Virus record (IMG/VR): IMGVR_UViG_648276653_000019
DNA from: a virus
Lineage: Duplodnaviria; Heunggongvirae; Uroviricota; Caudoviricetes
DNA: 45,892 bases
Reading direction: 5' to 3' (one strand)
A program made the position numbers. How positions within the stretch are numbered: position 1 is the stretch's first letter; every line of letters starts with the position of its first letter. Positions 24,701-27,700 of this stretch are shown here, piece after piece.

Positions 24701-27700
24701 CGTGAAATTATCGCCATGGGCGGTAAACCATTCGAAGCGCTGGTTAAACAAATGGAGTTAGTTCGCCAGTACCAGACGAACGAGGGTATGTCCCTGTTTG
24801 ATTCGGAGGACGAATTTGAAACACATTCCTATTCTTTCGCGGGCCTGTCTGACCTGCTTAGCGAGTTTAAAGAGGATATAGCGGGTGCTGTTGGCATTCC
24901 TCTTGTCCGTCTGTTCCGCCAGTCACCGAAGGGTTTTTCAACCGGTGACGCTGACCTCGCGAACTACTACGACGACGTTGGAACGCTTCAGGAGCGAGAT
25001 TTACGGCCTCACATCCGCCTGTTATTCGATGTACTGCATCGCTCAGAGTTTGGCGAGCCGTTGCCGCAAGATTTCACCTTTGAGTTTAACCCCCTGTGGC
25101 AGATGAGCGACACCGATCGCTCCACGGTGGCAACCAACACAACTACCGCTCTTGCAACCGCGGTGCGTGATTTGGGCATGTCGCCGGCTGCTGCTCTGAC
25201 TGATTTGCGCGAGCTGTCTGACGTTACCGGCATCGGTGCTTCAATTAGCGATGAGGATATCCAGAATGCGGCGAAACAGTGGCAGGAGACTGAATCTGAA
25301 ACCAGCCCTCCGCCGCCGATCGGAGGTCCAGTATCAGAAAAGCCTACTGGCGATAGTCGACCAGATAAATCAAATCGTCACGGGTTCCTACGATGGTTCA
25401 CAGGCAAGCGCTGAGAGCATTGCTAAATCGCTTGTTGACTACTCCGGGGTGATCGACGACTGGGCCGAAATGGTCGGTCGAAAGATGTTTGCCCAGGTGG
25501 AGCGTGAAGAGTGGAATCAGTGGCGCTCTGTTTCGGAAGAAATATCCGCTGGTCTGCGTGACGTGATTAGTAACACTCCTGTCGGCATGGTGGCACAAGA
25601 CACCGTTTACCGGCAGATTCGCTATATGAAATCTCTGCCATTAGAGGCGGCCGGACGTGTCAGGGAGATTCAGGAGCGTGCGATAAAGGCTGTCATCCAT
25701 GGTGAGCGTCCAGATCAGCTTTACGAGATGATCATGCAATCCGGTGACGTGGCGGCCAGCAGGGCGCGGATGATAGCCCGCACTGAGATAGGCCGCGCAA
25801 CTACCGCATTAACTCAGGCTCGGGCGCTGTCAGTTGGCTCTGAGGGGTACTGGTGGCGCATCAAGGGGGCTGGTACCAGGCCATCGCACCGAGGAATGAA
25901 AGATAAATTTGTGCGCTGGGATAACCCGCCAACGCTTGACGGCATGACCGGACACGCCGGATGCCTGCCGAACTGCGATTGCTGGCCAGAAGTGCAGATC
26001 CCTGAGTTTAGAAAATAATGCATAATGCATTAGTAACAACTCGATAGGGATAGCAAATGAAGCAAAACATACATAAGCTTAACGGGTTAGAATTCACCCA
26101 TGAACGCGATTTTATCAACGGGCAATGGGTATATTCTTGGTATTTTAGACCCCTAGAGCAATCTGAATGGTGCCCATTCTCGCTGCCAACGGGGAAAACA
26201 AGAAAATCTGATATTGAGAATTTCTTAAAAAATTGTGAAGAAGCTACCAAGTTCTATTTAGAGTGGTTAAGAAATGCCTCTGATGTGGAAGGTGCTGAAC
26301 GCTATTTATTATCCGCAAAACAAGCTTGGGAAAGGATATCTAGCCCGGACTGGGGAGGGCGTGGAAGTAATCCAAACAAGGATGCCAGGAGGGTGCAACA
26401 AGCAAGAGAAACTTTCGAATCGGCAAAAGTAAAGCTTGAGAAAGCCAAGATATTACGAGAAAGATTAAATAGTAACTAACAACGAGGCCGCTATTCAGCG
26501 GCCTTTTCTTTGCCCGCCATTCAGCAGGTAACCCATGAAATATTTCTTTAAAACCCGCCTGGGTAATACTCGCTTTCAACTTGCTGATGGGTCAGTCCTG
26601 TTTAAGGACGTCCCGATCGCAAGGACTGGTGAGCTGGAGTACGACGCCACAGAGCGGCCTGAGCTTGTCCCAAACGACAGAGGGAAGGTCATCGTACGCC
26701 GGACGCCAGAAGAGGTGTTCAGCGAGCGAGCCATGGCGTCATTCGAAGGAATGGCAGTCACTATCGGCCATCCGCGAGATTTTGACGGGCAGATCATCTT
26801 TGTTACCCCTGATAACTGGCGCCAGCTGGCTCACGGGCACATCCAGAACGTACGACGTGGCACGGACGATAAAACCGATCTGCTGCTGGCTGATGTCATC
26901 GTCAAAACCCCGGAAGCCCTGCAGGCAATTGATGATGGTGATGACGAGGTCAGCTGCGGGTACGACGCCGATTACGAACAGATTTCACCTGGTCTCGCAA
27001 AGCAATCTGCGATTACCGCTAACCATCTGGCCCTTGTCCCTAACGGGCGGGCCGGTTTCCGTTGTGCAATAGGGGATTCTATGCCAAGCACTACTAAAAA
27101 CTGGTTTACCCGGCTCCTGAAGGCCCGTAAAACCGGGGACGCTGCCGAAATGGCAAGTCTCATTGATAACCCGCCTGATGATGTCACGGGCGATAACGAC
27201 GTATCGACCTCTATGACACCTGGCGGAGTGGTCATCAACCTTGCGCCGCAAAATCCGCTTCCCGGCCCGGCATTGCCTGGTACCGGCGATGCCGAGGAAG
27301 AAATTCCTGCATGGGGTAAGGCGCTGATTGAGGCGGTGGCCAAACTCACGCCTGCGGCAACTGCTCCTGGAACCGGCGATGCCGAGGACGAAGAGGAGAA
27401 AAAGGAAGAAGAGGGTAAGGTTACCGGCGACGCCGCTTACCGTGCCGATCTGATTCAGCCAGGCATCCAGTTGCCAGAGAAGGCGAAGCCGACAGCATTC
27501 AAGCGTCAGGTGCTCGCCTCTGCAGATCAATCTCTGGTGCGCTCTATTGTCGGTGATGCCGATATCAGCAAGCTGAAAAAAGCCACGGTAGATATGGCTT
27601 TCACGGCTGTTTCTGAGCTGGCGAAAAACCGCAATACCAAAACCGTCGACAGCCTGCAAACGCAGACTGCCACCACTGTTAAAACCATTGCCGGTATGAA

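What the first reader, a model, noticed from the sequence alone, without database searches (positions are those of the whole stretch)
26019..26520. Independent moron inserted between head morphogenesis and scaffold genes
The 140-aa ORF (26057..26479) is AT-rich relative to its flanks and interrupts an otherwise overlapping structural operon. It has an AT-rich leader with palindromic ATGCATAATGCAT and is followed by its own intrinsic terminator (26485-26511). Such self-contained cassettes in late operons are typically lysogenic conversion, defence or anti-defence genes. The protein is unrecognisable to me.
Basis: partly seen in the sequence, partly recalled or inferred. Interest (0 to 1): 0.6.

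Follow-up and report, generated by a model that had tools for sequence, protein, structure and literature searches.

The report
Optional cargo gene in prophage head operon
A small AT-rich gene of unknown function sits as optional cargo in a swap-prone slot of a lambdoid prophage's head-gene operon; it is a real moron-type accessory gene, but the terminator after it belongs to the phage backbone and no promoter of its own is shown.

Summary
The 140-aa ORF (26057-26479) is real, under purifying selection, and AT-rich (GC 0.41, GC3 0.38, against 0.49-0.59 and 0.51-0.71 for the other late genes). It lies in a 466-bp insert (26019-26484) that all 13 related Klebsiella phage records lack.

Two parts of the finding need correction. 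The hairpin terminator (26485-26511) is not the gene's own: it is a conserved backbone element with covarying stem pairs, present in empty slots too. The ATGCATAATGCAT palindrome is no more than chance gives and is not conserved.

The MuF|DUF2213 junction is a cargo hotspot. Of 77 related viral contigs, 32 are empty, 12 carry this gene, and the rest carry at least six other cargos.

Homologues occupy the same slot in Klebsiella oxytoca, Citrobacter, Escherichia and Yersinia prophages. The family also occurs between lysis and terminase genes of another prophage type, and as single-gene cassettes in Vibrio chromosomal integrons. It is therefore a stand-alone mobile accessory gene, not a virion part.

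The protein matches nothing in Pfam, NCBIfam, PHROGs or PADLOC. A confident AlphaFold model (pLDDT 95) has no significant structural match in PDB or BFVD. Function is unknown; prophage-encoded phage exclusion or defence is my leading guess, anti-defence the main rival.

The parts
25470..26018 (+). MuF-like minor head protein gene: the left flank of the slot. Its stop codon TAA is at 26016-26018.
   Evidence: Pfam Phage_Mu_F, E = 2e-12. 93% identical to the Mulock head morphogenesis protein.
26019..26484 (+). 466-bp cargo insert (leader plus gene plus 5 nt), absent from related phages.
   Evidence: Junctions defined by alignment with Mulock, GZ7 and ST16-OXA48phi5.2. The MuF-DUF2213 gap is 516 nt here and 51 nt in empty relatives.
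26018..26030 (.). Probably without function.
   Evidence: Frequency is at chance level. Not conserved in homologous leaders.
26021..26026 (+). CATAAT, a conserved -10-like hexamer 31-36 nt upstream of the start codon. A candidate weak promoter element; this is inference.
   Evidence: Identical in 8 of 8 enterobacterial homologous leaders while the neighbouring bases vary. TATAAT sits at a similar distance in the lysis-terminase context. No acceptable -35, and no hit in the promoter scan.
26047..26051 (+). Shine-Dalgarno-like AGGGA for the cargo gene.
   Evidence: The TAGGGAT block is conserved upstream of the start in homologues.
26057..26479 (+). 140-aa cargo gene. It encodes a soluble, basic (pI 9.1) protein with an N-terminal 4-stranded beta-sheet, four helices, and a conserved loop DPGG-x-NNPGK-x-R.
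   Evidence: Ka/Ks is 0.21 against the K. oxytoca homologue. AF2 pLDDT is 95. RefSeq WP_029363697.1, a near-identical copy in E. coli KFu024 (insert DNA 99.8% identical), is named 'hypothetical protein'.
26485..26511 (+). Backbone intrinsic terminator: stem GGCCGC/GCGGCC, loop TATTCA, then TTTTCTTT.
   Evidence: Found by the terminator scan. Present in empty slots and across genera. 94.6% of cells paired, 4 of 6 pairs with changes on both sides, 0 of 500 shuffles reach the score.
26509..26530 (+). Conserved second small hairpin or sequence block that covers the ribosome-binding site of the DUF2213 gene.
   Evidence: Predicted in nearly all loci and highly conserved, but with almost no covariation (helix 2). 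The structure is therefore unproven.
26535..27737 (+). DUF2213 (Pfam PF09979) head gene: the right flank of the slot. Its scaffold role is presumed, not verified.
   Evidence: Pfam E = 1e-35. No relative in PDB by sequence.
19307..19930 (+). Lambda Q-type antiterminator gene, which sets the transcription regime of the late operon that holds the cargo.
   Evidence: Pfam Antiterm, E = 1e-57.
20035..20063 (+). Strong tR'-like terminator between Q and the lysis genes.
   Evidence: 13-bp stem followed by a T-run.

Best explanation
The 466-bp segment 26019-26484 is exchangeable cargo in a recombination hotspot of an E217/XM1-type head module, carried by a lambdoid temperate prophage.

Anatomy. The slot runs from the MuF stop codon to a conserved backbone terminator hairpin that precedes the DUF2213 gene. 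The cargo brings a 38-nt leader and one gene, but no terminator.

Expression. During lytic growth the gene is co-transcribed with the late operon. RNA polymerase modified by the phage's Q antiterminator reads through intrinsic terminators (inferred from the presence of Q, and established for lambda). In a lysogen, any initiation at the conserved CATAAT in the leader would give a monocistronic transcript of about 0.47 kb that stops at the backbone hairpin (inferred, not shown).

Product. The gene encodes a stand-alone, soluble, basic 16.6-kDa protein of an undescribed family. It has a beta-sheet, a helical domain that looks weakly TPR-like, and no catalytic motif, so it most likely acts by binding a partner.

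Role. The family is a single-gene mobile unit. It appears in phage moron slots, in Vibrio integron cassettes, and in variable islands next to toxin-antitoxin and defence-like genes. My best guess for its role is conflict-related: protection of the lysogen against other phages (exclusion or defence), at about 0.35-0.4 on its own. The confidence figure below applies to the anatomy and the evolutionary reading, not to this functional guess.
For: - Insert absent from 13 of 13 related phage records, with clean junctions.
- Slot states among 77 IMG/VR loci whose DUF2213 is at least 80% identical: 32 empty, 12 with this gene, about 14 with a 261-bp non-coding element, 8 with a 64-71-aa ORF, and others. 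The 39 species-level genome loci show similar variety.
- The hairpin is conserved and covaries, including in empty slots.
- GC 0.41 and GC3 0.38 against the late genes.
- Ka/Ks is 0.21.
- Close alleles of the insert are 98.5-99.8% identical where MuF is 91.6-99.8% identical, indicating mosaic recombinational spread.
- Q antiterminator and a tR'-like terminator lie upstream.
- CATAAT is conserved in 8 of 8 homologous leaders.
- The family occurs in three unrelated contexts: the MuF slot, the lysis-terminase gap, and attC-flanked 620-bp integron cassettes. Distant members lie next to HipBA or AAA_15/FRG genes, and no partner gene is conserved.
- The AF2 model is confident: pLDDT 91 with 3 sequences and 95 with 37.
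- Chromosomal integron cassettes are reported to be rich in anti-phage defence systems (bioRxiv 10.1101/2024.07.02.601686, abstract seen).
- Morons in late operons are known to confer phage resistance (PMC3594210; PMC10884400).
Against: - No promoter passes the consensus scan, so expression in the lysogen is unproven.
- The gene sits on the late-operon strand with a short leader, so it may simply be a late gene.
- No match to any PADLOC defence model and none to any known fold, so the functional guess rests on context alone.
- Homologue divergence tracks the head genes over long distances. This also fits long-term residence, and therefore some link to the module.
- The excess of amino-acid polymorphism among close alleles (8 non-synonymous to 2 synonymous) fits an arms race. 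It also fits unpurged, slightly deleterious changes.
Confidence: 0.8

Rival explanations
1. Anti-defence gene. The protein would inhibit a host immune system for the benefit of the phage, like the anti-CRISPR operons that sit between two head morphogenesis genes in Mu-like Pseudomonas phages.
For: - Position matches the acr region, which lies between the Mu G homologue and the protease/scaffold gene and holds mix-and-match cargo (PMC3993853).
- The protein is small, non-enzymatic, of novel fold, and has no partner gene.
- Non-synonymous polymorphism is in excess among close alleles (Fisher p = 3e-4).
Against: - No aca-type HTH gene and no recognisable strong promoter.
- Late-operon placement suits early counter-defence poorly.
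- No significant structural match to solved Acr proteins. AcrIF24 and another AcrIF chain appear only at E = 0.4-0.8 and TM below 0.3.
- The family also occurs as cassettes in sedentary Vibrio chromosomal integrons and in chromosomal islands. Host-beneficial genes are more expected there.
Confidence: 0.25
2. Head-module component. The protein would be a late-expressed assembly factor or minor virion protein that co-evolves with MuF and the scaffold.
For: - Same slot in head modules from Klebsiella, Citrobacter, Escherichia and Yersinia, and in 27 of 35 viral contigs that carry a homologue.
- Divergence is similar to that of neighbouring head genes: 76% identity against 80-88% for the flanks, and 54% against 46-75%.
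- Same strand as the late operon, with no demonstrated promoter.
Against: - Absent from 32 of 77 close relatives and from all 13 phage records. These include Mulock and GZ7, whose records give wastewater and hospital sewage as the source, as expected for plaque-isolated phages.
- The slot holds unrelated cargos in other phages.
- Homologues occur between lysis and terminase genes of a different phage type and in integron cassettes with no phage genes nearby.
- Foreign base composition has persisted in diverged homologues.
Confidence: 0.07
3. Orphan immunity or antitoxin-like protein, linked to MuF-type polymorphic toxins or to a toxin-antitoxin pair.
For: - It lies immediately downstream of a MuF gene. 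MuF-toxin fusions followed by immunity genes are known (my own recollection of Jamet et al. 2017; not checked here).
- One metagenomic fusion protein (P0010) carries a ParD-antitoxin-like C-terminal tail (E = 1e-3, below the Pfam cut-off).
- Vibrio cassette arrays are rich in TA modules.
Against: - The MuF protein here and in all homologous loci is short (177-240 aa) and holds only the Phage_Mu_F domain, with no toxin domain.
- No conserved neighbouring toxin gene in any context.
- The ParD-like tail is absent from the other family members listed.
Confidence: 0.04

Closest known systems
Morons of lambdoid phages, as defined for HK97/HK022 (for example HK97 gene 15, a superinfection-exclusion gene in the tail operon)
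   Same: Extra DNA between two late genes that are adjacent in relatives. Deviant GC content. A terminator directly downstream. Carried by a temperate phage with a Q-antiterminated late operon. Single small gene.
   Different: The terminator is a conserved backbone element, not part of the inserted DNA. No recognisable promoter beyond a conserved -10-like hexamer. Expression from the prophage is untested. Unlike HK97 gp15, which I recall as an inner-membrane protein (not checked here), this protein shows no hydrophobic segment (GRAVY about -1.0) and is probably cytoplasmic.
Anti-CRISPR (acr-aca) region of Mu-like Pseudomonas phages (JBD30, DMS3, D3112 and others)
   Same: A defined slot inside the head morphogenesis cluster, just upstream of the scaffold-type gene. 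Different phages carry different small unrelated genes there in mix-and-match fashion, and some relatives have nothing.
   Different: No aca repressor gene and no conserved -35/-10 promoter. No sequence or structural similarity to known Acr proteins. The conserved element at the 3' end of the slot is an RNA hairpin rather than a gene.
Tab, the tail assembly blocker moron of Pseudomonas phage JBD26
   Same: A small protein without known domains, encoded inside the late operon of a temperate phage. It is an example of a late-region moron that gives the lysogen phage resistance.
   Different: Tab is on the opposite strand with its own promoter and has a cognate anti-Tab partner (PMC10884400). The gene here is co-oriented with the late operon and has no partner. 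There is no sequence similarity.
Gene cassettes of sedentary chromosomal integrons in Vibrio
   Same: Family members in V. anguillarum and V. harveyi are single-gene, roughly 620-bp units bounded by attC-like repeats (TAACAAA...GCGTTAG).
   Different: The window copy has no attC repeats. It lies in a phage slot bounded by a stop codon and a terminator, so the means of mobility differs.

Membership tests
Moron (Juhala/Hendrix definition, as summarised in PMC3594210) | Extra DNA between genes that are adjacent in related phages | tested here: met
   13 of 13 related phage records and 32 of 77 IMG/VR relatives have a 51-bp gap where the window has 516 bp.
Moron (Juhala/Hendrix definition, as summarised in PMC3594210) | GC content differs from that of the surrounding genes | tested here: met
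   GC 0.407 and GC3 0.383, against 0.49-0.59 and 0.51-0.71 for the late-operon genes.
Moron (Juhala/Hendrix definition, as summarised in PMC3594210) | Own promoter | tested here: inconclusive
   No hit in the sigma-70 scan. A CATAAT hexamer 31 nt upstream of the ATG is conserved in 8 of 8 homologous leaders, but no -35 is present.
Moron (Juhala/Hendrix definition, as summarised in PMC3594210) | Intrinsic terminator directly downstream of the gene | tested here: met
   Hairpin plus T-run at 26484-26511, 5 nt after the stop codon.
Moron (Juhala/Hendrix definition, as summarised in PMC3594210) | The terminator belongs to the inserted element ('own' terminator) | tested here: not met
   The same hairpin, with a covarying stem, is present in empty slots and with other cargos.
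Moron (Juhala/Hendrix definition, as summarised in PMC3594210) | Expressed from the repressed prophage | not testable with these tools
   Needs RNA-seq or TSS mapping in a lysogen.
acr-aca anti-CRISPR locus | Slot between head morphogenesis genes, upstream of the scaffold gene, with variable cargo | tested here: met
   MuF|DUF2213 slot with at least 8 cargo types. Compared with the description in PMC3993853.
acr-aca anti-CRISPR locus | Associated HTH repressor gene (aca) downstream | tested here: not met
   The cargo holds a single ORF and is followed at once by the hairpin and DUF2213. No HTH domain was found in the protein.
acr-aca anti-CRISPR locus | Similarity to a known Acr protein | tested here: not met
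Known anti-phage defence systems (PADLOC-DB v2) | Match to a defence-protein HMM | tested here: not met
   0 of 37 family members match at E <= 0.01.
Integron gene cassette | Single ORF bounded by attC recombination sites | tested here: not met
   Met for the Vibrio homologues: 12 and 8 copies of a TAACAAA...GTTAG repeat, with the gene between consecutive copies 620-621 bp apart. Not met for the window copy, whose boundaries are the MuF stop codon and the hairpin.
Virion or head-assembly protein of the E217/XM1-type module | Present in all phages that share the module | tested here: not met
   Missing from 65 of 77 close relatives, and from Mulock and GZ7.
Immunity protein of MuF polymorphic toxins | Upstream MuF protein carries a C-terminal toxin domain | tested here: not met
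   The MuF protein is 182 aa (260 aa for the longest ORF). The Phage_Mu_F domain reaches residue 249 of that 260-aa ORF, and no further domain is present. The same holds in homologous loci.

The most novel reading that the evidence does not exclude
The MuF|scaffold junction, with its conserved terminator, would be a dedicated cargo dock of E217/XM1-type head modules in temperate enterobacterial phages. It is positionally equivalent to the acr locus of Mu-like phages. The 140-aa protein would be the founding member of a new single-protein phage-conflict family (defence/exclusion or counter-defence) with a previously unseen fold, shared between prophage moron slots and Vibrio superintegron cassettes. 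The 261-bp non-coding cargo in the same dock could be a new phage sRNA that uses the backbone terminator.
Probability: 0.3. Interest if true: 0.65.

Novelty: new member of a known kind. Interest (0 to 1): 0.42.

Why it matters
If the protein proves to be a defence or anti-defence factor, it would add a new single-gene family, with a fold that has no relative in PDB or BFVD, to the phage-bacterium conflict repertoire. The family is carried by prophages of clinically important E. coli and Klebsiella.

The slot itself is useful independently of function. It is flanked by two conserved head genes and marked by a conserved hairpin, and it holds at least eight alternative cargos. That makes it a ready-made search handle for finding further accessory genes, in the way the acr locus of Mu-like phages was used.

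The finding also corrects a common reading error: a terminator next to a moron need not belong to it.

Tried and rejected
- Domain searches with the protein and 36 relatives against Pfam, NCBIfam, PHROGs and PADLOC found nothing significant.
- A sequence profile against PDB gave only a weak TPR-like signal: a designed CTPR protein at E = 1.6e-4, and Hop and PEX5 at E > 0.03. I treat this as a hint that the helical part is a binding scaffold, not as homology.
- No conserved partner gene exists across contexts. I therefore rejected a two-gene system.
- The MuF-toxin immunity idea is rejected because MuF is short.
- The palindrome as an operator is rejected: its frequency is at chance level and it is not conserved.
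- I looked for a target-site duplication at the insert ends and found only trivial TAAC microhomology.
- Scans for distant high-GC relatives in IMG/VR and JGI metagenomes returned nothing. Most distant members sit on contigs too short to show context.
- tblastn of the window protein against PLSDB plasmids found no hit.
- A literature search by accession number found no paper.
- An Rfam search of the 261-bp element found nothing.
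Full report
**1. What is in the sequence**

The + strand carries an ATG-initiated ORF at 26057-26479 (140 aa), with an AGGGA Shine-Dalgarno-like motif 6 nt upstream. Its GC is 0.407 and its GC3 0.383. The 22 other late-operon genes I compared (20293-37424) have GC 0.49-0.59 and GC3 0.51-0.71. The sliding profile shows a trough of 0.38-0.45 between flanks of 0.54-0.60. A hairpin (stem GGCCGC/GCGGCC, loop TATTCA) followed by TTTTCTTT lies at 26484-26511, and the terminator scan picks it up.

**2. The surrounding genome**

The window is a lambdoid temperate prophage. 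Pfam assigns:
- a lambda-type integrase (1419-2489, minus strand);
- a CI-like HTH/S24 repressor (12038-12751, minus strand);
- an O-like replication protein;
- NinG;
- a Q antiterminator (19307-19930, E = 1e-57);
- a holin and an Rz.

A strong terminator (20035-20063) lies between Q and the lysis genes, as tR' does in lambda. Everything from the holin through the tail genes is on the + strand.

The head module runs: PBSX-type large terminase, DUF1073 portal, MuF-like minor head protein (25470-26018), the ORF, DUF2213 (26535-27737), cement protein, DUF2184 major capsid protein. The 'scaffold' label for DUF2213 is a presumption; I found no solved relative.

**3. The insert and its borders**

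Thirteen phage records (Klebsiella phages Mulock, GZ7, RCIP0034, several ST...phi prophages, and Wanchaivirus PDP110P2) match 25200-27800 at 90-97% identity, but in two pieces that skip about 465 bp. Alignment shows that in Mulock and GZ7 the MuF stop codon is followed after one base by AGGCCGCCAATGAGCGGCCTTTTC. This is the same hairpin that follows the ORF in the window. The insert is therefore 26019-26484 (466 bp): a 38-nt leader, the gene, and 5 nt. I saw no target-site duplication.

**4. The terminator is a backbone element**

In 34 loci from many genera (Klebsiella, Raoultella, Serratia, Rahnella, Photorhabdus, Pantoea, Enterobacter, Yersinia), a hairpin plus T-run sits at the same distance upstream of the DUF2213 start. 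This holds whether the slot is empty or filled.

On an alignment of 28 distinct sequences:
- the 6-bp stem is paired in 94.6% of cells;
- 4 of 6 pairs show changes on both sides (GC, AU, CG);
- no shuffle out of 500 reaches the covariation score;
- sliding the 3' partner by 1-3 columns drops pairing for the whole tested structure (both hairpins) from 92.5% to 24-45%.

'Followed by its own intrinsic terminator' is therefore wrong as an attribution. The cargo was placed upstream of a resident terminator.

A second conserved block (26509-26530) can fold over the DUF2213 ribosome-binding site, but it shows almost no covariation, so its structure is unproven.

**5. The palindrome and the 'overlapping operon'**

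ATGCATAATGCAT (26018-30) exists. However, 6+1+6 inverted repeats occur 14 times in the window against 11.2 +/- 3.5 in shuffles. In homologous leaders the sequence is ATGCATAATACC, ATTCATAATGCG and so on, so it is not a conserved operator. The late operon has other gaps of 237, 57, 55, 39 and 183 nt.

**6. The slot is a cargo hotspot**

I examined 77 IMG/VR contigs whose DUF2213 protein is at least 80% identical to the window's.

| Slot length | Content | Loci |
|---|---|---|
| 51-57 bp | empty | 32 |
| 509-516 bp | this gene family | 12 |
| 254-262 bp | AT-rich segments: 13 copies of a 261-262-bp element without a conserved ORF, plus one 254-bp cargo (L144) encoding a 67-aa ORF | 14 |
| 249 bp | a 64-71-aa ORF placed downstream of the hairpin | 8 |
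| 477 bp | an 80-aa ORF plus the 261-bp element | 4 |
| 332 bp | a 54-aa ORF | 2 |
| 159, 385, 528, 773, 934 bp | other cargos, one locus each | 5 |

The 773-bp cargo encodes a 214-aa Cys-rich protein with an HTH-like tail.

The same variety appears in 39 species-representative genomes. Loci with 98-100% identical DUF2213 can be empty or filled, so gain and loss are fast relative to backbone divergence. Most cargos inserted upstream of the hairpin are AT-rich (GC 0.37-0.50, against about 0.55 for the flanks).

**7. Distribution of the gene**

A search of 5.8 billion proteins found only five clusters. A profile search of 1.84 billion representatives found 49 (27 at E <= 1e-10). This is a small family of proteins of about 140-155 aa, all labelled 'hypothetical'.

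The family occurs in these contexts:
- *Same slot.* Homologues at 76% (K. oxytoca/aerogenes), 54-72% (Citrobacter, Escherichia sp.) and 41% (Yersinia) identity lie in exactly the same MuF|DUF2213 slot. So do 27 of 35 IMG/VR homologues.
- *Lysis-terminase gap.* Eight IMG/VR loci of a low-GC prophage type carry a 47% homologue between the lysis cassette (holin, lysozyme, Rz) and the terminase and portal genes. There a perfect TATAAT lies about 27 nt upstream of the start.
- *Integron cassettes.* The Vibrio homologues (35-37% identity) are single-gene cassettes of about 620 bp between consecutive attC-like repeats (TAACAAA...GCGTTAG). The arrays also hold Phd/RelE modules, an acetyltransferase and LysE, which marks them as chromosomal integron arrays.
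- *Variable islands.* More distant members lie beside HipBA or AAA_15/FRG genes, and no neighbour is conserved.
- *E. coli genomes.* 43 of 5426 complete genomes carry the insert at 95% identity or more (42 at 99% or more), and 72 carry this head-module type.
- *Plasmids.* tblastn of the window protein found no hit in PLSDB.
- *Sequenced phages.* No INPHARED record has the gene apart from the Vibrio entry, whose relevant region looks like an integron array.

**8. Evolutionary pattern**

Over long distances the gene's divergence resembles that of its neighbours:

| Comparison | This gene | MuF | DUF2213 | Major capsid protein |
|---|---|---|---|---|
| Window vs K. oxytoca | 76% | 88% | 81% | 86% |
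| Window vs Citrobacter | 54% | 75% | 46% | 59% |

Over short distances the picture is mosaic. The insert is 98.5-99.8% identical among close loci whose MuF genes are 91.6-99.8% identical, which indicates spread by homologous recombination in the conserved flanks.

Ka/Ks against K. oxytoca is 0.21, so the gene is under purifying selection and is a real gene. Among seven close alleles the variable sites split 8 non-synonymous to 2 synonymous. MuF gives 13:54 and the portal gene 30:105 (Fisher p = 3e-4). This may be an arms-race signature, or it may be unpurged polymorphism.

The low GC persists in diverged homologues (0.39-0.47).

**9. The protein**

It is 16.6 kDa, with pI 9.1 and GRAVY -1.0, and shows no hydrophobic stretch of the kind that would form a signal peptide or membrane span.

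AlphaFold2 gives pLDDT 91 with 3 sequences and 95 (pTM 0.82) with 37 sequences, with identical topology in both models: strands 6-8, 11-20, 23-32 and 39-41, then helices 50-58, 60-74, 77-94 and 106-139.

Conserved positions include G10, W24, W28, P32, A63, Y67 and the loop DPGG-x-NNPGK-x-R between the last two helices.

**10. How it most likely works**

*Shown:*
- The gene is optional cargo upstream of a resident terminator.
- It lies in a late operon that is preceded by a Q antiterminator gene.

*Inferred from lambda biology:*
- Q-modified polymerase reads through the hairpin, so the gene is made late in lytic growth.
- Unmodified polymerase starting in the leader would stop at the hairpin, which insulates the head genes.

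*Inferred from conservation only:*
- The CATAAT at 26021-26026, identical in 8 of 8 enterobacterial leaders while its neighbouring bases vary, may be a weak -10 element. The consensus scan finds no promoter.

*Function.* The protein is a stand-alone mobile gene. It is shared by prophage moron slots, by integron cassettes (reported to be rich in defence systems; bioRxiv 10.1101/2024.07.02.601686), and by islands with TA or defence-like neighbours. This points to a conflict-related role. My ranking is:
- protection of the lysogen (exclusion or defence), about 0.35-0.4;
- anti-defence, about 0.25;
- other host modulation, most of the remainder;
- a structural role, below 0.1.

**11. Comparison with what is known**

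It fits the moron concept (PMC3594210) on insertion, composition and the presence of a downstream terminator. It does not fit on ownership of that terminator, and the promoter is unresolved.

The closest positional analogue is the anti-CRISPR region of Mu-like Pseudomonas phages. [quoted passage not shown] Here, however, there is no aca gene, no clear promoter and no Acr similarity.

Tab of JBD26 shows that small, domain-less late-region morons can be defence proteins (PMC10884400).

**12. Verdict**

This is an ordinary kind of feature: a moron-type cargo gene in a hotspot. It is more precisely described here than in the finding, with one attribution corrected. The protein family is uncharacterised and its fold has no known relative. 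Interest is moderate. The slot and the family are good candidates for a defence or anti-defence screen, but nothing here is categorically new.

Noticed in passing
L031 2740-3000; L147 2240-2500; alignment A9 (17 loci): A 261-bp AT-rich element with no conserved ORF fills the same MuF|DUF2213 slot in about 14 of 77 viral loci and about 10 of 39 genome loci. It has strongly conserved blocks: tandem AAATGTT, the inverted repeat GGACATTTTAATCGAGTCC, and TTATGTTAAATAG. It ends at the backbone terminator and has no Rfam match. It could be an sRNA or a regulatory region. It also occurs as a module inside the larger 477-bp and 934-bp cargos.
   Followed up: partly
window 26509-26530: A conserved sequence between the terminator and the DUF2213 start can fold into a small hairpin that covers the AGG of the ribosome-binding site. 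It is nearly invariant across genera, so covariation cannot confirm the fold. It may control translation of the DUF2213 gene.
   Followed up: partly
L014 (MK672802.1 31431-41427): This part of the record named 'Vibrio phage Va_90-11-286_p16' holds 12 attC-like repeats spaced 470-800 bp apart, Phd/YefM-RelE/ParE modules and a transposase. It looks like a chromosomal superintegron cassette array rather than phage DNA.
   Followed up: partly
L102 slot (773-bp cargo): One close relative (99% DUF2213 identity) carries a different cargo in the slot: a 214-aa Cys-rich ORF (CECECG...CGC motif) with an HTH-like C-terminus and its own upstream hairpin. It may be a homing-endonuclease-like or regulatory gene.
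   Followed up: no
window 26057-26479 against L062-L072: Among seven near-identical alleles, 8 of 10 variable sites change the amino acid (codons 19, 27, 65, 88, 104, 118, 120, 128). The flanking MuF and portal genes show mostly synonymous changes. The insert is less diverged than its flanks.
   Followed up: yes
window 19307-20063: A Q antiterminator gene is followed by a 13-bp-stem terminator ahead of the lysis genes, the classic lambda PR'-tR' layout. Terminators inside the late operon should therefore be read through during lytic growth.
   Followed up: partly
window 23726-23962: A 237-nt non-coding gap with lower GC (0.46-0.49) lies between the large terminase and portal genes. A gap of the same length is present in phage Mulock. 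Its content was not examined.
   Followed up: no
P0010 (L177 1767-2744): A metagenomic 325-aa protein fuses an unknown 143-aa N-terminal region, the family domain, and a C-terminal tail that resembles the toxin-binding end of ParD antitoxins (E = 1e-3, below the Pfam cut-off).
   Followed up: partly
L002 2363-2557; L125; L028: A 64-71-aa ORF (MKKVHIESKRAGD...) is the only common cargo inserted downstream of the backbone hairpin rather than upstream. Its GC is like that of the phage (0.56).
   Followed up: no
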